The translations under genes and the position numbers were made by a program. From a virus (lineage: Duplodnaviria > Caudoviricetes): a stretch of 64,000 nucleotides of DNA. The notes beneath the pieces are model-generated. The model had not been told where the DNA came from. It did not search any database and worked only from the letters and a program-made list of their open reading frames with translations. Where the stretch lies: IMG/VR virus record IMGVR_UViG_3300005758_000017, positions 1-64,000 of that record; one strand, written 5' to 3'. Shown piece by piece: positions 1 through 58,292 of this stretch (position 1 is its first letter; each line of letters begins with the position of its first letter).

Positions 1-2822
1 ATGTTACCACCGTTGATATCAACTGTAGCAAATGTGCTTGTACCAGAACTTGTAACATCACCAGTTACGTTACCTGTTACGTTACCAGTTAAATCACCTG
101 TTACGTTACCTGTTACGTTACCTGTTAATGGACCAGTAAAGCTGGCAGCTGATAAGCTACCTGTTGTAGAGAAATCACCATTAACATTAACGTCTTTGTT
201 GAAGTCCCAGCTGTCTGTACCACTTGCATAAGTGATAGTAGCATTAGCACCAGCAACTGTAATACCAGCACCATTGGCTGCGGCTGCATTGGCAGCACCA
301 TCAGCAATAGTGATGTTTTTGTCTGTAACTGTTAAGTCAACAGAGTTAATAGATGTTAATGTACCTTGAACTGTTAAGTCACCGCTAACTGTTACATCAT
401 TGAATGTAACGTTGCTTGTTGTGCTAACGTCCTGACCAATTGCAAATACACCAGTTGATTGTGTATAAGTTACACCTGTACCACCACTAACATCAGCACG
501 AGTGCGAGCTGTTGTGTAGTATAGGTTGTTTGCACCTTCGGCTAAGCCGTCTGTGTCTTTGGCAGCAAATGCGCTATCAAAACGAGCTTGTGTATAGTAT
601 AGGTTAGAACCTTCTGTTACATCATCTGTTGTTTTGCCAGCTAGTGCTGTATCAAAACGAGCTTGTGTCCAATACTTGTTTGTTGCACCTTCGCCAATAT
701 CGTCAGTGTCTAGTGTATAACTAGCACCTAAAGAAATTGCGTGACCGTTAACTGTAACATCGCTGTTTGTCAAACTGCTATTTGGAATACTTGCAAGAGC
801 AATTACACCAGTTGAGCTAGAGTATGTAACACCAGTTGCTGTTGTAGCACTTAGTTCGCCACGAATGTTTGCGGCTGTTACTTTGGCAAATGTGAATGTA
901 CCAGAAGCACTATCATATGTTAAACCGCCGTGACCAGTACCACTTGTTGCGGCACTTAATTCACCACGAACATCAGCACTTGTAACTTTAGCGTATGTGA
1001 ATACGCCAGATGTGTTATCATATGTTAAATCACCAAAACCTGTGCCACTTGTTGTAGCACTGAAATGTAGACGAGTCTCGGCTGCGCTTGGACCTGTGTA
1101 TGTGAATACACCTGTTGAGCTATCGTATTGTAAATCGCCATCGCCGCTTGCACGGTATGCGCTTACTGCACCACGGTAGTCAGCATTTGTTGGGCCATCA
1201 TAAGTGAATACACCAGTTGTGCTGTTGTATTGTAGGTTACCATCACCGCTGGCTGCATTAGCACTAACGGCTTGACGATAATCAGCATCATCTGGACCTG
1301 TGTAGCTGAACACACCAGTTGCATTGTCGTAACTGAATGAACCATCACCACTTACTTTAGTTGCGCTAACTGATGCACGAGCACGAGCATCTGTATAGTA
1401 CTGGTTAGTAGCGCCTTCGGCAACATCATCTGTGTCAGGAGTTGTTAATGTAAACTCGCCGCTTGTGCTGTTGTAACTGAATAGGTTCCATCCACCGGTT
1501 GCTGTGCCAACACTTTGACGAGCACGAGCTGTTGTAAAGTACAAGTTATTTGTACCTTCAGCAACGTCATCAGTAGTTTGGCTACCTAGACTGAATGTAA
1601 ATGTACCAGTTGTATTGTCGTAGCTTAATACACTTGCGTTGTCGCTTACTAAACTTACGGCATTACGAACGCGAGCATCTGTGTAGTACTTGTTTGTTGT
1701 ACCTTCTGTTACTTCATCAGTGCTTGGTGCTGTTACAGTGATGATACCACTTGTGCTGTCATAGCTAACGTTGCCCCAGTTTGAAGATAAGCTGATAGCA
1801 TTGCGAGCGCGAGTATCTGTATAATATAAATTATTTGCACCTTCAGCAATAGCGTCTGTGTCAGGTGTTACAAATGTAAATGTACCTGTACCGGTGTTAT
1901 AATTTAAAATGTTACTGTTATCAGTTGTTAAGCTGATTGCGTTAGATGCACGTAGGTTTGTGAAGTATAAGTTTGAGCTACCTTCGCTTACGTCATCTGT
2001 GTTCAATACAACAGTATGAGTTTGACCATTAACACTCCAAACGGCAGCTTGTGTGCTAATGATACCTGTTGATGGGTCATAATCAATATTAGAACCATTG
2101 CTTACGCTATTACGAGCACGAGCTGTAGTAAAGTATTGATTTGTTGCTCCTTCAACAATCTTATCTGTATCTGGTGTTGTCCAAGTGAACGCACCAGTTG
2201 TAGAACTATAACCTAAAATCTGGCTATCGTCACTTGTTAAACTAATGGCATTACGTACACGACTGTCAGTGTAGTACAGGTTTGTTGTACCTTCTAAGAT
2301 ACCATCGCTTAGTGGATGATTGTAGCTTAAAACACCAGTTGTGCTGTTATAGTCTAATACGCTTGTGTTGTCACTTTGTAAAGACCATGCATTACGAACT
2401 CGAGAATCTGTGTAGTATAGATTTAAAGAACCTTCTGGAACATCATCTGTACTGTAGATCATCTGTGCGTTGATCTGAGCATCAACATAACTCTTTGTTG
2501 CGGCGTGCATCAAATTAGATGGATCTGCATGTAGAGTCAAGAAGCCAGTCATTGTGTCGCCGCTTAGGGCAACTTTAGTAGCGATAGAATTGGCAACGGT
2601 AGTTGCAAAATTCTGATCGTCATTAATAGCACTTGCTAATTCAGATAGTGTATCTAGAACAGCAGGTGCGGCGTTAATCAAATCACTAACGGCTCCGCTA
2701 ACGAAAGCTGTAGAAGCGATTTGGGTAGTATTAGAACCTGTACTAGCCGTTGGGGCTGTAGGGGTTCCACGCAAGTCGACGTCATTGACAATCGAGCTTG
2801 ACCTTGCTTTAATTAAAGGCAT
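1..2822 (-). CDS. Long repeat-built tail fibre / adhesin protein (partial; the 3' end runs off the left window edge)
   Basis: Not in the ORF track because it has no stop in the window. ATG at 2822 gives MPLIKARSSSIVNDVDLRGTPTAPTAS..., open for ~940 codons. It has the phage fibre motif AAPAVLDTLSELASAINDDQNFATTV, many TDD(V/I)xEGxxNLY(Y/F)TxARxR repeats, YDxxTGVFTY repeats and TGNV repeats. Confidence 0.8.
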   Translation of the reverse strand, partial: MPLIKARSSSIVNDVDLRGTPTAPTASTGSNTTQIASTAFVSGAVSDLINAAPAVLDTLSELASAINDDQNFATTVANSIATKVALSGDTMTGFLTLHADPSNLMHAATKSYVDAQINAQMIYSTDDVPEGSLNLYYTDSRVRNAWSLQSDNTSVLDYNSTTGVLSYNHPLSDGILEGTTNLYYTDSRVRNAISLTSDDSQILGYSSTTGAFTWTTPDTDKIVEGATNQYFTTARARNSVSNGSNIDYDPSTGIISTQAAVWSVNGQTHTVVLNTDDVSEGSSNLYFTNLRASNAISLTTDNSNILNYNTGTGTFTFVTPDTDAIAEGANNLYYTDTRARNAISLSSNWGNVSYDSTSGIITVTAPSTDEVTEGTTNKYYTDARVRNAVSLVSDNASVLSYDNTTGTFTFSLGSQTTDDVAEGTNNLYFTTARARQSVGTATGGWNLFSYNSTSGEFTLTTPDTDDVAEGATNQYYTDARARASVSATKVSGDGSFSYDNATGVFSYTGPDDADYRQAVSANAASGDGNLQYNSTTGVFTYDGPTNADYRGAVSAYRASGDGDLQYDSSTGVFTYTGPSAAETRLHFSATTSGTGFGDLTYDNTSGVFTYAKVTSADVRGELSAATSGTGHGGLTYDSASGTFTFAKVTAANIRGELSATTATGVTYSSSTGVIALASIPNSSLTNSDVTVNGHAISLGASYTLDTDDIGEGATNKYWTQARFDTALAGKTTDDVTEGSNLYYTQARFDSAFAAKDTDGLAEGANNLYYTTARTRADVSGGTGVTYTQSTGVFAIGQDVSTTSNVTFNDVTVSGDLTVQGTLTSINSVDLTVTDKNITIADGAANAAAANGAGITVAGANATITYASGTDSWDFNKDVNVNGDFSTTGSLSAASFTGPLTGNVTGNVTGDLTGNVTGNVTGDVTSSGTSTFATVDINGGN
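55..131 (-). repeat. 12-bp tandem repeat encoding (TGNV/TGDL)n in the fibre gene
   Basis: The plus strand shows repeated cctgttacgtta/ccagttacgtta, which encodes GPLTGNVTGNVTGDLTGNVTGNVTGDV on the minus strand. Confidence 0.9.
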
Positions 2823-13797: not shown

Positions 13798-14691
13798 ATG
13801 GATAATTCCAACCCACTAAAGAAGCCAATTAAAATGCCAACACCTAACCCGTTGGCGCAATATTACCGCAGACCTGGTACTCACATCGAGTTGCCAAGCG
13901 GTGGCCGTTTTTATAGTAAGCCTCCTAAAATGTCAGATACAAACGAATTAGCCGTTTATCCAATGACAGCAAAAGATGAGCTTGCGCTTAAAAACCCAGA
14001 TGGATTACTAAACGGAGAAGCACTTAAACAGGTACTAGCAAGTGTTTGTCCAGACATTAGTAATGTATCTGAAATCCCTGCACCCGATATTGATGCTATT
14101 TTGGTTGCTATGCGTATGGCCAGCTATGGCGACGATATGGAGTTAGATGTTAACCATAATTGCGAACAAGCAAATGGTAGAAGCCAACGTATTACTGTTG
14201 GCTTAGGTGGCATTTTAGGTACGCTTAAAGCTATCCCCGACGGCATAGGCGATGTTAATCTTGCAAACGGTATTAACGTTAAACTAAAGCCATACACTCT
14301 TGATGCACAAAGTAAATTGCTTCGTATTCAGTTTGTTACTATGCGACAATTACAAGCCGCAGAAGCAAATGAAAACATCACAGTAGATCAAAAAGCTGAA
14401 ATTGCCAACAAAGGCTACAATGAACTAGTGCTATTAAGTCAAGACATATTAGCACAAAGTATATTAAGCGTAACACTTCCAGATGGTGTTGAAGTTACAA
14501 ACCCAGCACACATTTTAGATTGGGTTAAAAACTTAGACCGTGCTACAAATGAACGCTTAGATGCAGAACTAAAACGTTTTGGCGAGTATGGTATTACCAG
14601 AACTGTAGAAGTAAAATGCGAACATTGTGGGGAAACTTACAAGTCAGACATGTTGTTTGACCCAACAAGTTTTTTCGGCGTAGGCTCTTGA
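13798..14691 (+). CDS. Baseplate hub / tail assembly chaperone, T4 gp26-like
   Basis: 297 aa. Motifs IELPSGGRFY, VYPMTAKDELALKNPD, PDIDAILVAMR and CEHCG; ends in SFFGVGS. Confidence 0.75.
   Translation: MDNSNPLKKPIKMPTPNPLAQYYRRPGTHIELPSGGRFYSKPPKMSDTNELAVYPMTAKDELALKNPDGLLNGEALKQVLASVCPDISNVSEIPAPDIDAILVAMRMASYGDDMELDVNHNCEQANGRSQRITVGLGGILGTLKAIPDGIGDVNLANGINVKLKPYTLDAQSKLLRIQFVTMRQLQAAEANENITVDQKAEIANKGYNELVLLSQDILAQSILSVTLPDGVEVTNPAHILDWVKNLDRATNERLDAELKRFGEYGITRTVEVKCEHCGETYKSDMLFDPTSFFGVGS
14670..14676 (+). promoter_or_regulatory. Candidate -1 ribosomal frameshift slippery site T TTT TTC
   Basis: The in-frame codons AGT TTT TTC form an X XXY YYZ heptamer. The -1 frame is open and continuous with ORF 14688-14915. 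Confidence 0.7.
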
Positions 14692-14915
14692 TACTCGGTA
14701 CCGACGTTAAAGGGATACGCCGCTTTATCGAAGGTATAGAAAACGAAGCAAGAGCCTTAGTCAAAGAAGTGACCACCTTAAGCGTATGGGGAGGCATAGA
14801 TCCAGATAGTGTCTGGTTTATGACTTTCCTTGAACGCGAAGTCCTAAGTGAAGTCATTAAAGAAAGAACAGAAGCAATGTACGGCAAGAAGGGCTTTGCT
14901 CGAAGTCGTTTCTAG
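14688..14915 (+). CDS. gp51-like chaperone ORF, probably the C-terminal extension of a frameshift product
   Basis: 75 aa from a TTG with no clear SD; W..MTFLERExL pattern; lies in the -1 frame relative to the upstream gene. Confidence 0.65.
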   Translation: MILGTDVKGIRRFIEGIENEARALVKEVTTLSVWGGIDPDSVWFMTFLEREVLSEVIKERTEAMYGKKGFARSRF

Positions 14916-14934
14916 TCATTTATCATATTCAGTC

Positions 14935-14951
14935 GGGCGAATACTTCGCCC
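14935..14951. terminator. GC-rich hairpin in the convergent intergenic zone
   Basis: GGGCGAA-TAC-TTCGCCC. Confidence 0.5.
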
Positions 14952-14984
14952 TTGAATTTCGCATCGCTTCGCTCTTGCTCATTC

Positions 14985-15011
14985 AGTGTATCTTAGATAC
15001 ACTTTTTTTTT
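14985..15011 (+). terminator. Intrinsic terminator of the gp26/gp51-like operon
   Basis: AGTGTATC-TTA-GATACACT, whose last T begins a T9 run. Confidence 0.75.
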
Positions 15012-15059
15012 GATTTAACACGATAAACTAGAGTAGATACATGTGATTTACATTTTGAT

Positions 15060-15575
15060 TACTTGACACTGATGATTCAGTCACACTTAGCCGTTTTACC
15101 GGCTAAGATTAAAAACTTGACACCGAAGTCCAAGCCACATTTAACTAAAGCAACTCGTTAAAGTTAGGGCGGTCACGCTGTACCCTTTTACGCTCATCTT
15201 ATTGTGACGCTACTGCAAGGCCTAGTTAAAATCGCTTTTGCAGTATGTAGGTTGTAATAGTTCACCAGAGCCTACTCATTTTAGCATTCATATACTTGTG
15301 TCAATTCGTTCCATGCCATGAATTGCGTCCTGTTAAGGATAGTGACAACAAGTCTCCGCTACTGTTCGGAAGTTCCTTCCCCTGTGCAACCCTAGTGCCA
15401 GGTTTTATGGGTGTTTTCCAGGCAACACACGCCTATTTCAGTAGTAATTTGCTTACTAGTGGATTTGCTAATAGATGTTTAAGTTAGAGTTCTACGTTGC
15501 GTAGTGTATTAGCCAAGATGAGTATGTAATAGAATATGTAGTTAGTAGCAGAGCTAGTTGAGTTAAGTGCCGTTG
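15060..15575 (-). ncRNA. Putative large structured non-coding RNA (boundaries approximate)
   Basis: No credible ORF over 660 bp, multiple helices, a C(UUCG)G loop on the minus strand, a possible pseudoknot and an 8-bp long-range pairing (see findings). Confidence 0.5.
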
Positions 15576-16004
15576 TTATAATTTGCCAAGAATATGAGAG
15601 CCATGAACACGAACCTGTATGTGCCCGTTGTAATAATCCATTGATTCAAGAACTTTTCTATCAAATTGTTCTTTAGCTTCTAGGTAAGAACAAGCAGATT
15701 TTGATTTGCAGTAGTGTAGAATTTCCCTCGTGAAGTTTTCTTCACCTAGTAGCTCTACATCTTTGCTCAGTTCAGGGCTAGAACCAAAATAAGTTAGCCA
15801 ATCGCTGTCAATTTTACTGCGAATCTTTTTCTTCTTTTTAACACCGTTCTTTTGTTTGACAACTTTATAGGTAGTCTTAGAGAACTTTGCTAATTTCTTA
15901 CCAACATACTTTCGATTGTTGGTTTTGTTCGTAATCAAATAAACAAAACCAACACAATCTTCTGGTAGTTCCTCAACAATGGTACCGTTATAGTACCATG
16001 TCAT
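15576..16004 (-). CDS. Single-domain GIY-YIG (Seg-like) nuclease with a Lys-rich insert
   Basis: 142 aa. Motifs GFVYLITN...KYVGKK, YFGSS, NFTREIL, YLEAKEQ and YYNG; no C-terminal DNA-binding module. Confidence 0.8.
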   Translation of the reverse strand: MTWYYNGTIVEELPEDCVGFVYLITNKTNNRKYVGKKLAKFSKTTYKVVKQKNGVKKKKKIRSKIDSDWLTYFGSSPELSKDVELLGEENFTREILHYCKSKSACSYLEAKEQFDRKVLESMDYYNGHIQVRVHGSHILGKL

Positions 16005-16005
16005 A

Positions 16006-16194
16006 TTACTTGGTAGCCGCTAATGCTTCTTTTTCAGCAGTAATCTCTTTACGGCGCTCTTTGATAGCTTTGCTCATCTCTTGTAGTGCTTTACGAGCAC
16101 GAGCGGCAGCGGCCTTAACGCCCTTGCCGGCAAACTTTTCGTTTTCGGCTTTGTAAATTTCAAACTGCTCAAGTAGTGTATCGTGGTTTGACAT
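16006..16194 (-). CDS. Histone H1-like (Hc1-family) small basic protein
   Basis: 62 aa with KGVKAAAARARKALQEMSKAIKERRKEI, matching the short Hc1 pattern KGNKAAxxRARKA. Confidence 0.7.
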   Translation of the reverse strand: MSNHDTLLEQFEIYKAENEKFAGKGVKAAAARARKALQEMSKAIKERRKEITAEKEALAATK

Positions 16195-16203
16195 AATGTC
16201 TCC

Positions 16204-17982
16204 TTAGTTTATTTCGTTTATTTGTGTATCAGTGTCAAGCATGGTGAACCCATTTTCCTTGACAACCATGAGAACGTTATTGACACGACTTGCCAACTCA
16301 TCTCTGTGCGAGATTAAGAAGATGTTTCGATTCATTTCTCGTCCCATAGCTTTCAAAACAGACATTGAATTTTCAATGCCCACACTATCCATCCCGGAGT
16401 CTACTAACTCATCAATAAACATTAAGTTCATTGGCTCAGTAAAACTCTCATAGACATCTCTAAAACTCCAGCTTAGTGCTAGAATTAAGCGATTTCTTTC
16501 ACCGCGGCTCAAGTTATCAAAGTCGAAACTTTGGCCTAGTTGACTAATATCAACTTCCAAGTCGCTTTTAAAAGTTACTTGGTGCGGTAATTGTAACTTA
16601 TCTAAGTAGTAGCTTAGTCTGTGATTCAAATAAGCTAAATTTTGCTCAATAATGCGTTTTCGGACAAATGAGTCCTTGCTTGTAAGCAATTTTAGCAAGA
16701 AATCTTGGTGCTCAAGCAGTTTGCTTACCCGATTAATTTCGTCCCAGCTAACTTCGGCTAAGGCCGTTTGCTTCATTGCTTCAATTTGCTCTTGATAAGG
16801 ATCTTCTTCGGCGATCCTTGTTTCAAGTTGCTTCTTGATGTTTTCTAGATTGTTTTTGTGGGCCGCCGCATCTTCAACGTTTGCGTACTTTGTACGTGGG
16901 CGTTCTCCAAGCTCACCAATAGTTCTTACAGCCATATCAGCATGAGCCAACATTCCATGCTCTTCTTTTAGTGCATTGACGGTTAGCTCAACAGCTTCTC
17001 TTGCACTAGCACTCATCTTGTCATGCTGAGCATCATGAACATCTTGGCCGCAACTAGGGCAACGATGTTCTAAAATATCAGCAAGGCTCTTTTGTGCAAC
17101 ATTTAACGCCTCTTGCAATTTTTTAACATTGCTCTGACGAGTAGCTAATTCTTTATTGGCTAACTTTAGGCGACTTTCATTTTCTTTGTAGGTTACAAGA
17201 GCACGATGCGCCTCAAGCTCTGCTTCAATATCAGTGCTTTCAAGTTCAGCAATACCAAGTTCAAGGGCCTTAATATCATCAACTTTCTTGGAGGCCCATA
17301 CACGACTACGGCGTTCGAGGTCGTCGATGCTTGTTTGAACACGAGCATTGCTTTCTTGTAGTGCTTTGATTCTAGAATCTTCGTCTCTGATTTGTTCTTT
17401 GCTGGCTTTAATTTGCTCTTTGAGAATGTCAGCCTTTTCACTTAGCTGTGTAATGCCTAGCAGTTCTTCAATGATGTCACGTTGCTCGCCACTTTTCAAA
17501 CTTAAGAAAGGCTGTGTGTAAGTGTTTAGTGCAACAAGATGCTTGAACATTTCAGCACTCATGCCAACTACACGTTCAATAGCTTCTTGTGTAACACGGT
17601 TCTCACCAGCACCCTCGTCGGTGTTTGCTTCGTTTACTTCGTGGTCGTCGACTAAGAAGCGAAGCAAGTTTGGTTTACGACCTCGTTCGATAGTGTACTT
17701 GGCACCATTCTTTTCAAACTCAACAGTAACAAGCATGTTCTTGCTATTTGTCTTGTTAATCAAGTTTTCTTTGCGAATGTTTGTGAGCGCAGAACCATAG
17801 ATAGCATAGGATAGTGCATTAACCATTGTGGTTTTACCTACACCATTGCGGGCACCATCGCCGCCAAGGTCAAGGTTATTGCCTAAGACAAGTGTTAGTC
17901 CATGTCTATCCATACGTAAGCCTTGGGTAACATTACCCACGCTCATAAAGTTCTTAATTGTAAGATTCTTAAACTTAATCAA
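16204..17982 (-). CDS. gp46: Recombination endonuclease ATPase subunit (gp46/SbcC/Rad50)
   Basis: Walker A NGVGKTT, CPSCGQ zinc hook, LSRGE signature, FIDE Walker B and ISH. Confidence 0.96.
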   Translation of the reverse strand: MIKFKNLTIKNFMSVGNVTQGLRMDRHGLTLVLGNNLDLGGDGARNGVGKTTMVNALSYAIYGSALTNIRKENLINKTNSKNMLVTVEFEKNGAKYTIERGRKPNLLRFLVDDHEVNEANTDEGAGENRVTQEAIERVVGMSAEMFKHLVALNTYTQPFLSLKSGEQRDIIEELLGITQLSEKADILKEQIKASKEQIRDEDSRIKALQESNARVQTSIDDLERRSRVWASKKVDDIKALELGIAELESTDIEAELEAHRALVTYKENESRLKLANKELATRQSNVKKLQEALNVAQKSLADILEHRCPSCGQDVHDAQHDKMSASAREAVELTVNALKEEHGMLAHADMAVRTIGELGERPRTKYANVEDAAAHKNNLENIKKQLETRIAEEDPYQEQIEAMKQTALAEVSWDEINRVSKLLEHQDFLLKLLTSKDSFVRKRIIEQNLAYLNHRLSYYLDKLQLPHQVTFKSDLEVDISQLGQSFDFDNLSRGERNRLILALSWSFRDVYESFTEPMNLMFIDELVDSGMDSVGIENSMSVLKAMGREMNRNIFLISHRDELASRVNNVLMVVKENGFTMLDTDTQINEIN

Positions 17983-19001
17983 TGTGTAAGTCCTTGATAA
18001 ATGCTGGTAAGAATTTGTCGATCAATGACATCAGATTCAATTGCCTGGATCTGATTTAGCACAATAGCATCAACAGATTCAAATTGAATCTCACCGCCCG
18101 TCCATTCAGTTGCATGTTCTTCCTTTTTACCAGGAATAAGACTCAACTCTCGCATATTGTATGCTTCGACCCATTGCTCTTTAACATAACTTGCTTCTTC
18201 GTAGCTGATATCTACGTCGATTGTGATTCGAGCAAACGTTTGTGAATCAAACAGTTCGGCATGTCTATCAATTGCCTGCGTTAGTGTTAGTGTTCTGAAC
18301 TTAGGAGCATTAGGCCAGGATCTAAATTCTGGCTCACCGCCGTACTCTAAGAACATACAACCACGCTCGTCGTCCCACGCATCTGCATAATTGTGTGGGA
18401 AGGGATTTCCTAGGTAAACAACGTTTCCTTTGCGTTGGCGTTTGTGAAAGTGCCCGCTAAACACTAGTTCTTGATTAGGAAAGTGTCCAGCATTAAGTCC
18501 ACCGTGATCTGGCATTTCAACCATAGCATTCATTTTAAAGCTTGGAAGTTCAAAATGTCCAAAGACATAACGACTCTTTAGCTTTTTCATTTCTTCCCAT
18601 TCGTCCCCAACTAACCAGGGAACAATAGTCATGTCACCAATAGTGGTAATTTCATCAATGAGATGTACGTTGTCTAAATAACCACCAAAAGGTAGCGAGT
18701 TAATTTCACGCTTTTCACGATATGCAAGATCGTGATTGCCCATAATAATGTACACTTCTTTAAAGTGTTCAGAAAGATATCTGATATTAGAAGTAGTGTA
18801 GTTTAGTGTGCTTACGTTAACAGTGGATCTATTGTTGTGCCAGTCACCAAGAAAGATGCATGTTTCAGCACCTTCTTTCTTGGCTTCTTCAACCATCCAT
18901 TTGATAAAGTTTTCGCAATCGTCATTGTGGCTTCGACTGTTATTACGCAAGCCAAAATGGATATCTGTAAAGCACACGGCTTTATTGAAAGGTTTAGTCA
19001 T
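17979..19001 (-). CDS. gp47: Recombination endonuclease nuclease subunit (gp47/SbcD/Mre11)
   Basis: Metallophosphoesterase motifs TDIHFG, GDWH, GNHD, GHFE and SGHFH. Confidence 0.96.
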   Translation of the reverse strand: MTKPFNKAVCFTDIHFGLRNNSRSHNDDCENFIKWMVEEAKKEGAETCIFLGDWHNNRSTVNVSTLNYTTSNIRYLSEHFKEVYIIMGNHDLAYREKREINSLPFGGYLDNVHLIDEITTIGDMTIVPWLVGDEWEEMKKLKSRYVFGHFELPSFKMNAMVEMPDHGGLNAGHFPNQELVFSGHFHKRQRKGNVVYLGNPFPHNYADAWDDERGCMFLEYGGEPEFRSWPNAPKFRTLTLTQAIDRHAELFDSQTFARITIDVDISYEEASYVKEQWVEAYNMRELSLIPGKKEEHATEWTGGEIQFESVDAIVLNQIQAIESDVIDRQILTSIYQGLTH

Positions 19002-44812: not shown

Positions 44813-45513
44813 CTTTCTTTGTAATTGTTAGACCCGGTGAGGATAGCCTAGCAGAAGTATCTAGATTAGACATTGGCTTTGTTCAACCTGGTGCAAAGGT
44901 AGAGTTAGTTAAAATTGAAAGTATGGATCCTGCGGAACAACTGAAGACGATTGCTTCTTTAAATTTTGAATCTGGTGATGTTTTATGTCTTGCTGGATTA
45001 TGTGTTAGAAGAACAACACTTGATGTTATCGAACTTGCTAAACAATCAAAGTTAAATTATACACCTGGCTATGGTATGGATCATCGTGGCGTTGAGATAC
45101 CACCAGGTAAAATAAGCATTAGACAATCAATAGAAAAAAATTGCCAGTCTACATGGCCCTACTTGTTAGTAGTCGGCGATCCTGAATCAGCTAAACTAAG
45201 TTTTGATTTGTTTCAGCATTTAGATCCAAATGATTACTGGCCTAACTATGTTCCAGACCCTGTTGATTTATTGCATCTCATTGGAGTAGTTGTATCAACT
45301 GGTTATTGGCAATCACCAGACTGGTTTAAACTAGTTGATTTGAGTATCCGCGATTTAGAAATTGCTCCAATAATGTACGCTAGCCATACATGGCACGACT
45401 GGATTGCATTTTATCCAGCTAATGGAAATTTTAAGTTGGAAAACCACAGCCAACTTTCTCCGGTCTGGCTCGCAGGTAGCACAAAGCCACTGGAGCATTG
45501 GAAACGTGGCTGA
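44809..45513 (+). CDS. Hypothetical protein, possibly a divergent glycosyltransferase-like subunit
   Basis: 234 aa, overlapping its neighbours in the operon; no clear catalytic motif. Confidence 0.5.
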   Translation: MTFFVIVRPGEDSLAEVSRLDIGFVQPGAKVELVKIESMDPAEQLKTIASLNFESGDVLCLAGLCVRRTTLDVIELAKQSKLNYTPGYGMDHRGVEIPPGKISIRQSIEKNCQSTWPYLLVVGDPESAKLSFDLFQHLDPNDYWPNYVPDPVDLLHLIGVVVSTGYWQSPDWFKLVDLSIRDLEIAPIMYASHTWHDWIAFYPANGNFKLENHSQLSPVWLAGSTKPLEHWKRG

Positions 45514-57818: not shown

Positions 57819-58282
57819 TATGTTCTTACCTTGTGAGATTTGTATGTGCCAAACAATAAGTCCCAAATGGGAATGAAAAGCCCAAAGTTAACCTTGTTGT
57901 TGTAATGATGAACCAAGTGCCATTTGCCACTTGTTAAAAACGGGAAAAGGTCAAACTTTGGATTGTGCTCGATTATTTCTTGAACAAAAGCCGCCCATAG
58001 ATAGTAAAATACGCTAACCCACCATTGTCCTGTAACCCAACTAAAGATTAATGTGGGCACAACTTCTGTAATCCATAGATCTAATGTGCTCATCCAGGTG
58101 TCGTTAAACAAGAACAAGTTATTCCAATGCCAAGTTGTTTGCTCGTGTGTGTTGATGTACTTGTGATGATCAGCGTGAGCATTAAATGCTACGGGAAAAA
58201 AGCGTAACCCAACAGAGTGGATTACGCGGTGAATAATGTAAAGGTATAAAGTCCAGATTATAAAAACAACAATGTAGTCCAT
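57818..58282 (-). CDS. Sterol desaturase / fatty-acid hydroxylase superfamily membrane enzyme
   Basis: His boxes HRVIH, HADHH, EH and HLVHH, plus NFG and WDLLFGT. Confidence 0.85.
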   Translation of the reverse strand: MDYIVVFIIWTLYLYIIHRVIHSVGLRFFPVAFNAHADHHKYINTHEQTTWHWNNLFLFNDTWMSTLDLWITEVVPTLIFSWVTGQWWVSVFYYLWAAFVQEIIEHNPKFDLFPFLTSGKWHLVHHYNNKVNFGLFIPIWDLLFGTYKSHKVRT

Positions 58283-58286
58283 GAAC

Positions 58287-58292
58287 TACTTA
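58287..58292 (-). promoter_or_regulatory. Late promoter motif TAAGTA-N4-ATG
   Basis: The minus strand reads GATAAGTAGTTCATG. Confidence 0.55.

What the first reader, a model, noticed from the sequence alone, without database searches (positions are those of the whole stretch)
14916..16004. Candidate large structured ncRNA directly behind a stand-alone GIY-YIG nuclease domain (possible RNA-protein system)
Seen: the only long ORF-free stretch of the window (660 bp) starts at the stop of a 142-aa GIY-YIG gene. Helices (plus-strand coordinates): CTTAGCCG/CGGCTAAG (15086-15107); a C(UUCG)G-capped hairpin that reads as such only on the minus strand (15116-15134); TTTAAC/GTTAAA (15140-15162); TACTGCAA/TTGCAGTA (15211-15245); GTAGG/CCTAC (15247-15275); a 10-bp bulged stem 15294-15303/15343-15353 enclosing small hairpins; CTACTG/CAGTAG (15359-15444) closing a multi-hairpin domain; a possible H-type pseudoknot (GTCAC 15172/GTGAC 15204 crossed by AGGGC 15166/ACCCT 15182); and a perfect 8-bp long-range pair, 15193-15200 with 15515-15522. 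The 5' ~130 nt are G-poor and nearly unstructured. The protein keeps the GIY/YIG, Glu and Asn motifs, has no DNA-recognition domain, and carries a Lys-rich insert (KVVKQKNGVKKKKKIRSK). Established: IscB/HEARO-omegaRNA shows that a small nuclease beside a large RNA can be RNA-guided. Inference: an undescribed phage RNP, either a guided nuclease or an RNA processed or bound by this protein. I do not recognise the RNA as a known family. Helices of 5-8 bp can arise by chance.
Basis: partly seen in the sequence, partly recalled or inferred. Interest (0 to 1): 0.82.

Follow-up and report, generated by a model that had tools for sequence, protein, structure and literature searches.

The report
Extended Polynucleobacter-1 twin-box phage RNA
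The gene-free stretch behind a small nuclease gene of this uncultured T4-like phage encodes a real, multiply knotted RNA of about 390 bases. Its first third is the catalogued orphan motif Polynucleobacter-1, the nuclease looks like a fixed neighbour rather than a partner, and the RNA's job is still unknown.

Summary

**What is there**
- Window 15294-15433 (minus strand) is a full-length match to Rfam RF01718, Polynucleobacter-1 RNA (88.6 bits, cut-off 37).
- Conservation and compensatory base changes continue about 240 nt further 3', to about 15055, and 12 nt further 5'. This gives an RNA of about 390 nt with at least three pseudoknots.
- One 9-mer occurs twice ("twin boxes"), at 15123-15115 and 15069-15061.
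The local TTTAAC/GTTAAA hairpin and the 15193/15515 long-range pair are not conserved.

**The link to the nuclease**
- Weinberg et al. (2010) already noted that this RNA lies downstream of PSSM2_218-like genes. PSSM2_218 is a homologue of this GIY-YIG protein.
- The link is conserved gene order, not dependence. The module sits at one fixed genome position.
- Some phages carry an unrelated PD-(D/E)XK nuclease in the same slot. Others have an extra ORF between the nuclease gene and the RNA.
- Close GIY-YIG homologues (phage Melnitz, cyanophages) have no such RNA.
- Polynucleobacter chromosomes carry the RNA between a DUF6641 gene and a 188-aa tyrosine recombinase, with no nuclease nearby.

**Verdict**
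This is a stand-alone structured RNA of unknown function. An RNA-guided GIY-YIG particle is unlikely (about 4%). This scan has found the same family many times on other DNA.

The parts
15055..15445 (-). Full-length structured RNA (about 390 nt; the ends are inferred from where conservation stops, not mapped)
   Evidence: Conserved blocks and compensatory changes across 20-95 relatives. An nhmmer profile finds it behind 52 of 73 GIY-YIG loci that have enough flank.
15294..15433 (-). 5' domain: Rfam RF01718, Polynucleobacter-1 RNA
   Evidence: 88.6 bits against a gathering score of 37, E 7.5e-19, model positions 1-141 of 141.
15359..15444 (-). Pseudoknot PK0: 5' leader 15444-15439 pairs with the hairpin loop 15364-15359. 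The leader lies outside the Rfam model.
   Evidence: Many different complementary word pairs at a roughly constant position in relatives. Longest complementary run averages 5.0 nt, against 4.3 nt with shuffled leaders.
15247..15275 (-). Hairpin Ha (15275-15271 with 15251-15247)
   Evidence: Present in all clades with different complementary stem sequences (by eye). 71% of cells paired on alignment A1; 2 of 5 pairs change on both sides.
15211..15245 (-). Hairpin Hb (15245-15238 with 15218-15211). Its loop carries the 5' strand of PK1.
   Evidence: Different complementary stem words in different clades (by eye). Only 53% of cells paired on alignment A1, which I put down to misregistered columns.
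15140..15230 (-). Pseudoknot PK1: loop 15230-15223 pairs with 15147-15140
   Evidence: 6 consecutive columns at 91-98% standard pairs, each with 2-4 pair types, in 95 non-redundant RNAs.
15166..15208 (-). H-type pseudoknot: 15208-15204/15176-15172 crossed by 15186-15182/15170-15166. It holds the invariant GGTAC.G....ACCGCC block (15184-15168).
   Evidence: Both helices are 100% paired in 20 sequences, with compensatory changes. The block is found in 109 of 117 RNA loci.
15086..15107 (-). Central hairpin between the twin units
   Evidence: 92% of cells paired; 4 of 8 pairs change on both sides.
15115..15123 (-). Twin box 1 (GTGTCAAGT). In this subclade it forms the 3' strand of the UUCG hairpin 15134-15116.
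15061..15069 (-). Twin box 2 (the same 9-mer)
   Evidence: An identical word of 7 nt or more occurs twice in 87 of 95 RNAs, against 15 of 95 shuffles.
15446..15575 (-). Spacer specific to this subclade, between the nuclease stop codon and the RNA. It holds a small hairpin at 15504-15492.
   Evidence: Conserved only in the closest relatives (L003, L004, L025, L079). In most relatives the RNA starts -1 to 37 nt after the stop codon.
15576..16004 (-). SegE-like GIY-YIG gene, catalytic domain only (142 aa)
   Evidence: PF19835, E 1.1e-32, residues 3-129. phrog_447, which is named 'NAD synthetase'. Motif residues are invariant.
14935..15003 (+). Two terminator-like hairpins that end the convergent plus-strand baseplate genes
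   Evidence: 14935-14951, and 14985-15003 followed by a run of T.
14957..14974 (-). GCGAAGC-type mini-hairpin words downstream of the RNA
   Evidence: Read. Related hairpins with GAGCG..AGCGAA loops follow the RNA in other phages and in the bacterial islands. Their role was not tested.

Best explanation
Window 15055-15445 (minus strand) encodes a stand-alone structured non-coding RNA, the full-length form of the orphan Polynucleobacter-1 family.

**Shown**
- The RNA has a 5' domain (the Rfam motif) closed by a leader-loop pseudoknot.
- It has an uncatalogued 3' domain with two more pseudoknots.
- The 3' domain ends in two tandem homologous units. Each ends in the same short word, which differs between relatives.

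**Inferred**
- The RNA is made as the tail of the gp47-gp46-Hc1-nuclease transcript, or from a promoter of its own, and acts in trans.
- Its rigid knotted core displays the two identical 7-nt boxes to a partner that reads the same word twice. That partner could be a dimeric protein or two copies of one nucleic-acid sequence.
- The GIY-YIG gene is an inherited neighbour. It is not needed for the RNA, and the RNA is not needed for it.

**Unknown**
The biological role is unknown, whether sponge or decoy, assembly scaffold, or regulator.
For: - Full-length Rfam match.
- Conservation extends beyond the Rfam model, and the helices and pseudoknots show compensatory changes.
- Twin boxes occur in 87 of 95 RNAs against 15 of 95 shuffles. 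The identity is sharply 7 nt long, next to flanks that are conserved but differ between the two units. The boxes are also present in the bacterial island copies.
- The RNA is independent of the nuclease:
  - A PDDEXK_15 nuclease sits in the same slot.
  - In 8 loci an ORF of 257-283 aa lies between the nuclease gene and the RNA.
  - Melnitz, a cyanophage and ACP17 have the protein but no RNA.
  - Polynucleobacter islands have the RNA between DUF6641 and a 188-aa recombinase, with no GIY-YIG or PDDEXK match.
- Gene order is fixed. gp46 lies upstream in 60 of 73 loci and the baseplate genes lie convergent in 69 of 79.
Against: - No transcript data are available.
- The RNA's ends, promoter and terminator are not defined. 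No minus-strand terminator or promoter was found.
- No partner for the boxes was found. There is no general complement within the RNA, no enrichment of the word in the window, and no fixed extra copy in the islands.
- Among phage RNA loci with enough upstream sequence, none was seen to lack a nuclease gene just upstream (two upstream ORFs have no family match), so some functional tie to a nuclease cannot be excluded.
- Single-sequence folding energy is not better than chance.
Confidence: 0.6

Rival explanations
1. RNA-protein system: the domain-only GIY-YIG nuclease binds this RNA and is guided by it, or processes it.
For: - The RNA starts -1 to 37 nt after the nuclease stop codon in most relatives.
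- About 105 of 119 RNA loci have the GIY-YIG gene upstream.
- The protein has no DNA-binding domain and carries a Lys/Arg-rich stretch.
Against: - The same RNA follows an unrelated PD-(D/E)XK nuclease.
- The RNA occurs with no nuclease in the bacterial islands.
- Close homologues with the same Lys-rich stretch have no RNA.
- The pair sits at one fixed genome position, so the many adjacent copies are one inherited arrangement.
- No variable guide-like end segment was seen.
- Small GIY-YIG enzymes can be sequence-specific on their own (Ssn family, PMC11893778).
Confidence: 0.04
2. Cis-acting replication or recombination signal. The transcript forms a primer or R-loop (as ColE1 RNA II or T4 oriF/oriG do), and the downstream DNA mini-hairpins start the other strand. 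Bacterial islands carry it so that they are copied.
For: - It lies next to the recombination nuclease genes gp46/gp47.
- An AT-rich tract and GCGAAGC-type hairpin words follow the RNA in phages and in islands.
- There is one copy per record.
Against: - A primer RNA does not need three covarying pseudoknots and invariant single-stranded blocks.
- Base composition and skew show nothing beyond gene orientation.
I did not re-test that.
Confidence: 0.12
3. The nuclease genes are free-standing homing endonuclease genes parked beside a conserved RNA gene, which is their cleavage target in rival phages, as T4 SegB sits beside the tRNA genes.
For: - Two unrelated nuclease families alternate in the same slot.
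- The Pfam and PHROG neighbours of the protein are SegE and homing endonucleases.
- In a cyanophage the homologous gene lies next to a tRNA cluster.
Against: - No empty site (RNA without a nuclease gene) was seen in phages.
- The protein lacks a DNA-binding domain.
- The gene is near-universal and fixed in position, unlike sporadic homing genes.
Confidence: 0.1
4. Cis-regulatory RNA: a 3' UTR element for stability or processing in phages, or a leader or antitermination element for downstream cargo in the islands.
For: - It is the 3' end of an operon in the window.
- In the islands, and in some phages, genes follow on the same strand.
Against: - The upstream and downstream genes differ completely between phages and islands.
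- Its size and knotted core exceed those of known 3' stabilisers.
Confidence: 0.08

Closest known systems
Polynucleobacter-1 RNA motif (Rfam RF01718; Weinberg et al. 2010, PMC2864571)
   Same: The 5' 140 nt match the whole model at 88.6 bits. The genomic setting is the same, downstream of PSSM2_218-family genes. The habitats match: freshwater or estuary samples and Polynucleobacter.
   Different: - The catalogued motif is 141 nt. Here it is one domain of an RNA of about 390 nt.
- A leader-loop pseudoknot, a conserved 3' domain, two further pseudoknots and the twin boxes are not in the Rfam model, and Rfam lists no family for that part.
- The 2010 note did not identify the upstream gene as a GIY-YIG nuclease.
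HEARO / IscB omega-RNA and TnpB reRNA (OMEGA systems)
   Same: A small nuclease gene lies directly beside a large structured RNA. HEARO comes from the same 2010 survey.
   Different: - The nuclease family differs (GIY-YIG or PD-(D/E)XK, not RuvC/HNH).
- RNA and protein each occur without the other.
- No guide segment or transposon ends were seen.
Large ornate RNAs of unknown function (GOLLD, ROOL, OLE, raiA)
   Same: These are RNAs of several hundred nucleotides with pseudoknots, found in phages and mobile DNA, with no known job. Some assemble into RNA-only complexes (bioRxiv 10.1101/2024.12.08.627333, title and abstract seen).
   Different: There is no sequence or model match. Twin identical boxes are not a described feature of those families. 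Self-assembly was not tested here.
T4 SegE / I-TevI type GIY-YIG homing endonucleases
   Same: The protein matches PF19835 over the full domain and keeps the motif residues.
   Different: It is only 142 aa with no C-terminal DNA-binding domain. It is conserved at fixed positions in hundreds of phages, where it is often mislabelled 'NAD synthetase'.

Membership tests
Rfam RF01718 Polynucleobacter-1 RNA | Covariance-model score at or above the gathering cut-off, over the whole model | tested here: met
   88.6 bits against 37; model positions 1-141 of 141; minus strand 15294-15433.
Rfam RF01718 Polynucleobacter-1 RNA | Lies downstream of GOS11034 / PSSM2_218-like genes (Weinberg 2010 supplement) | tested here: met
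   The upstream ORF is 39% identical to PSSM2_218, E 3e-21.
Rfam RF01718 Polynucleobacter-1 RNA | Model helices kept by compensatory change | tested here: met
   First hairpin: 88% of cells paired, 4 of 5 pairs changed on both sides. The other model helices align.
SegE-like GIY-YIG domain (PF19835) | HMM match above the cut-off, with the GIY / YIG / Arg-Glu / Asn motif residues | tested here: met
   113.3 bits against 25. F20, V21, Y22, Y33, G35, R93 and N126 are invariant and E94 is nearly so, in 11 homologues.
Free-standing GIY-YIG homing endonuclease (SegA-G, I-TevI) | A separate DNA-binding domain joined to the catalytic domain | tested here: not met
   The protein is 142 aa and the catalytic-domain model covers residues 3-129. 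No other Pfam domain matches.
Free-standing GIY-YIG homing endonuclease (SegA-G, I-TevI) | Sporadic presence or absence at variable genome positions | tested here: not met
   Fixed gene order in 60 of 73 and 69 of 79 loci. The protein is found in 622 phage records.
OMEGA-type RNA-guided nuclease (IscB-HEARO, TnpB) | RNA and nuclease always occur together | tested here: not met
   The RNA occurs with PDDEXK_15 and with no nuclease in the islands. The nuclease occurs without the RNA.
OMEGA-type RNA-guided nuclease (IscB-HEARO, TnpB) | A variable guide segment at one end of a conserved scaffold | tested here: inconclusive
   The ends are poorly conserved but show no defined guide. The only short variable words are the internal twin boxes.
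Group I intron | Match to the intron core model; flanking exons | tested here: inconclusive
   No Rfam intron match up to E 10 in 14000-17000. The element lies between convergent genes, so there are no exons.
RNA-primed origin (ColE1 RNA II, T4 oriF/oriG type) | The transcript forms a persistent hybrid and primes DNA synthesis | not testable with these tools
   Only indirect features are available: downstream hairpin words and an uninformative skew profile.

The most novel reading that the evidence does not exclude
The twin 7-nt boxes are two reading heads of a bridging RNA. Each pairs with the same core word in one of two DNA (or RNA) partners, bringing them together for strand exchange or cutting by whatever small enzyme the element carries. 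That enzyme would be the 188-aa tyrosine recombinase, which is little more than a catalytic domain, in Polynucleobacter islands, and the GIY-YIG or PD-(D/E)XK nuclease with gp46/gp47 in phages. Seven nucleotides falls within the usual 6-8 bp of a tyrosine-recombinase crossover region (from general knowledge).
Probability: 0.03. Interest if true: 0.9.

Novelty: new variant of a known kind. Interest (0 to 1): 0.55.

Why it matters
Polynucleobacter-1 has sat in Rfam since 2010 as a 141-nt orphan. Here, and in hundreds of related contigs, it is only the first domain of a roughly 390-nt pseudoknotted RNA. That RNA is carried by large aquatic T4-like phages and by small recombinase-bearing islands in Polynucleobacter.

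Large conserved RNAs without a known function are rare, and they have repeatedly led to new biochemistry. HEARO, from the same 2010 survey, became the omega-RNA of IscB.

The twin boxes are identical within an RNA and different between RNAs. They offer a direct experimental handle: change one box, or both. Polynucleobacter strains that carry the island can be grown in culture.

For annotation, the result also corrects two labels:
- The 'NAD synthetase' genes of many cyanophage records are GIY-YIG nucleases.
- The Rfam model covers only about a third of the RNA.

Tried and rejected
- **Known families for the 3' domain.** An Rfam E-value search of 14000-17000 and a gathering-threshold search of the whole window found nothing besides RF01718.
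- **tRNA or tmRNA.** None found in the window.
- **DNA similarity to isolated phages.** No match.
- **RNAalifold on the MAFFT alignment.** It recovered only 24 pairs, because variable hairpins are misregistered. For the same reason helices Hb and PK1 score poorly, so I used a column scan on 95 sequences and an alignment-free check instead.
- **Folding energy.** It is not above shuffles on the RNA strand.
- **A cis partner for the boxes.** The window's UUCG stem pairs with box 1, but other clades have no equivalent. tRNA anticodon-loop complementarity, CsrA-type GGA sites and stop-codon readings each fit only part of the box vocabulary (reasoned from the list).
- **Box word frequency in the window.** 4 copies against 2.2 expected.
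- **Box word as the island attachment core.** There is no fixed extra copy in 12 island loci of up to 8 kb, though the island ends may lie outside them.
- **DUF6641 as a hidden nuclease.** The AlphaFold model is good (pLDDT 81.6), but Foldseek found nothing at E of 0.001 or below, and the best VIA-align score was Z 5.5 on coiled or helical parts. This is inconclusive.
- **Other island genes.** Pfam found only a GNAT acetyltransferase.
- **A second copy of the RNA elsewhere.** None in five GIY-YIG contigs that lack it downstream, but those are fragments.
- **Promoter or terminator on the minus strand.** None found by the consensus scan.
Full report
**Setting**

The window is the first 64 kb of a 75.5-kb IMG/VR viral contig that CheckV rates as about 23% complete. 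Its genes mark a T4-like phage:
- a T4 baseplate-family protein at 13798-14691 on the plus strand;
- on the minus strand, a gp47-like phosphoesterase (17979-19001), a gp46-like SMC/AAA protein (16204-17982), an Hc1 histone-like protein of 62 aa (16006-16194), and the 142-aa ORF at 15576-16004.

The 142-aa ORF matches PF19835 (SegE_GIY-YIG) over residues 3-129 at E 1.1e-32. It also matches phrog_447, whose name 'NAD synthetase' is plainly a propagated mislabel. The stretch 14916-15575 lies between convergent gene ends. Two plus-strand terminator-like hairpins (14935-14951, and 14985-15003 followed by a T run) close the baseplate genes.

**Check of the observation**

A search of 14000-17000 against Rfam gave one strong hit. 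Positions 15294-15433 on the minus strand match RF01718, Polynucleobacter-1 RNA, at 88.6 bits (gathering score 37), E 7.5e-19, over the whole model. It is the only Rfam family in the window. No tRNA or tmRNA was found.

Single-sequence folding energy is not better than shuffles on the RNA strand (z = -0.36).

**The RNA is longer than the Rfam model**

I collected 80 loci that encode relatives of the GIY-YIG protein. RF01718 lay just downstream, on the same strand, in 24 of the 40 loci scanned.

In those loci another ORF-free stretch of roughly 270-380 nt usually follows the Rfam hit, whatever the next gene is. Alignment shows that this stretch is conserved. It contains an invariant GGTAC.G....ACCGCC block (window 15184-15168) and several hairpins whose stems differ between clades but stay complementary.

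On the 20-sequence alignment A1:
- Helices 15208-15204/15176-15172 and 15186-15182/15170-15166 are each 100% paired with compensatory changes.
- The hairpin 15107-15100/15093-15086 is 92% paired, with 4 pairs changed on both sides.
- The whole set exceeds all 500 shuffles in covariation score and all slid controls.

One pair is U-G in all 20 sequences, which fixes the strand as minus.

On 95 non-redundant sequences, a column scan found the long-range helix 15230-15225/15145-15140. It has 91-98% standard pairs and 2-4 pair types per column. So the loop of hairpin 15245/15211 pairs with 15147-15140.

It shows many different complementary word pairs in relatives at a roughly constant position, although the alignment-free excess over shuffled leaders is modest (longest run 5.0 against 4.3 nt). 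It joins a leader outside the Rfam model to a hairpin loop inside it, which makes a third pseudoknot.

- On the RNA strand it is 7 bp.
- L025 keeps it, but L003 and L004 lose it without compensation.
- The 130-nt spacer 15446-15575 that holds its 5' strand exists only in the closest relatives.

This is also not the only long ORF-free stretch of the window.

**Twin boxes**

While reading the alignment I saw two tandem units that change in parallel rather than in complement. Each has a UGUGAC-like word, about ten bases, and then a short box.

In the window the 9-mer GTGTCAAGT occurs at 15123-15115 and 15069-15061. Across 95 RNAs, an identical word of 7 nt or more occurs twice, 35-120 nt apart, in 87. 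The same holds for 15 of 95 shuffled sequences. The identity is most often exactly 7 nt, next to flanks that are conserved but differ between the two units.

I found no general complement within the RNA, no enrichment of the word in the window, and no fixed extra copy near the island copies. What reads the boxes is unknown.

**Is the nuclease a partner?**

Searching IMG/VR for a conserved 18-mer of the RNA gave 119 loci.
- About 97 have the GIY-YIG gene ending 10-170 nt before the RNA.
- Eight have one more ORF of 257-283 aa in between, with no Pfam or PHROG match.
- At least five have no GIY-YIG. Instead they carry a 173-188-aa PF24608 (PDDEXK_15) nuclease in the same slot, after gp46 and a small ORF. 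Four of them were scanned against Pfam; L161 is inferred from identical ORF sizes and gene order.

Searching from the protein side gave a different picture.
- An nhmmer profile of the full RNA found it behind 52 of 73 GIY-YIG loci with enough flank. In many marine loci only the 3' domain matched.
- The cultured Methylophilales phage Melnitz (58% identical protein), a Synechococcus phage and Acidovorax phage ACP17 have the protein but no RNA anywhere in their genomes. The Lys-rich stretch is present there too.

The module sits at one genome position in phages. gp46 lies upstream in 60 of 73 loci and the baseplate genes lie convergent in 69 of 79. The many adjacent copies therefore reflect one inherited arrangement.

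In bacterial genomes the 18-mer hit several Polynucleobacter chromosomes and other freshwater MAGs. About half of the 33 hits are expected by chance for a word of this length. The real ones were confirmed with the profile. There the RNA lies between a divergently transcribed DUF6641 gene and a same-strand 188-aa tyrosine recombinase about 500 nt downstream, with no GIY-YIG or PDDEXK match. These copies keep the 3' domain and the twin boxes, with other words.

Every independent rearrangement I could find breaks the RNA-nuclease pair. That argues against an obligate RNP. The one point in its favour is that, among phage loci with enough upstream sequence, none was seen to lack a nuclease gene just upstream; two upstream ORFs (L171, L179) have no nuclease-family match.

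**What was already known**

The supplement of Weinberg et al. 2010 states that most Polynucleobacter-1 RNAs lie downstream of GOS11034 genes 'with possible homology to PSSM2_218' of cyanophage P-SSM2, and that none was found in a purified phage. PSSM2_218 is a 145-aa protein, 39% identical to the window's GIY-YIG (E 3e-21). The adjacency is therefore not new, although the gene was not recognised as a nuclease.

No other paper in the library mentions the motif, and none mentions DUF6641. Small GIY-YIG enzymes can be sequence-specific without a guide or an extra domain (the Ssn family, PMC11893778).

**Earlier notes of this scan**

After my own analysis up, I looked up earlier notes. The scan has met this family on many other genomes. 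Those agents report an extended Polynucleobacter-1 RNA of about 400-540 nt with twin 7-letter boxes, no dependence on the nuclease, nuclease-free Polynucleobacter islands, and an unknown function. One proposed a replication signal and another found no support for that. My results agree with them, and I reached the twin boxes, the PDDEXK swap and the islands independently. To my knowledge the DUF6641 neighbour and the PSSM2_218 check are additions.

**Mechanism**

The best-supported reading is a stand-alone, trans-acting structured RNA whose knotted core presents two identical boxes to a reader of both (confidence 0.6).

The rivals are:
- a cis-acting primer or origin element (0.12);
- homing nuclease genes parked beside a conserved RNA gene (0.10);
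- a cis-regulatory 3' or 5' element (0.08);

None of these can be settled without expression and binding experiments.

**Side tests that led nowhere**

These are listed under Tried and rejected. The main ones are the DUF6641 structure model, which has no informative fold match, the Pfam scan of other island genes, and the composition profile.

Noticed in passing
window 370-996, 1742-2281, 2474-2903, 44813-45403, 57867-58292: Five other stretches of 426-627 bp without an ORF of 45 aa or more. None has an Rfam match at gathering score.
   Followed up: partly
window 16006-16194 (-): A 62-aa protein matching PF07432, the Hc1 histone H1-like protein known from Chlamydia (E 3e-13). It sits between gp46 and the GIY-YIG gene of a phage. 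A homologue lies upstream of the RNA in only 12 of 73 related loci.
   Followed up: no
L100:3963-4484, L130:8819-9385, L132:9985-10506 (-), L096:10497-11018 (-): In some related phages a PF24608 PDDEXK_15 nuclease (phrog_244, named 'RusA-like resolvase') occupies the slot of the GIY-YIG gene, directly before the same RNA.
   Followed up: partly
L097:10375-11148, L103:6141-6959, L139:1262-2113, L169:5687-6487 (-): An ORF of 257-283 aa lies between the GIY-YIG gene and the RNA in 8 loci. Those tested have no significant Pfam match (one weak hit below the cut-off) and no PHROG match.
   Followed up: partly
L226:3626-5640, L234:2287-4299 and other Polynucleobacter loci: A bacterial island cassette: DUF6641 (divergent), the RNA, about 500 nt of non-coding or cargo sequence, then a 188-aa tyrosine recombinase that is little more than the catalytic domain. 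Two strains (MWH-HuK1 and Latsch14-2) carry two copies each.
   Followed up: partly
L082 (RNA 3' domain): A variant with a single unit. About 80 nt, including the 3' strand of PK1, unit 1 and the central hairpin, are missing. This is probably a decayed copy.
   Followed up: no
L048, L121, L138 (after the ACCGCC block): AT-rich insertions of 60-100 nt with repeated TGTACAA-like words sit at one variable site of the RNA.
   Followed up: no
phage records; L202:2980-3411; L237:16712-17149: The GIY-YIG family is annotated 'NAD synthetase' in many cyanophage and rhizobiophage records. In cyanophages it lies downstream of nrdA/nrdB (directly after them in SynMITS9220M01, several genes further on in P-SSM2), and in SynMITS9220M01 it comes just before a tRNA cluster.
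   Followed up: partly
window 14957-14974 (-), and after the RNA in L015, L020, L224 and others: Hairpins with GAGCG..AGCGAA loops, or GCGAAGC-type words, follow the RNA in phages and in islands. They could act at the DNA level, but their role was not tested.
   Followed up: no
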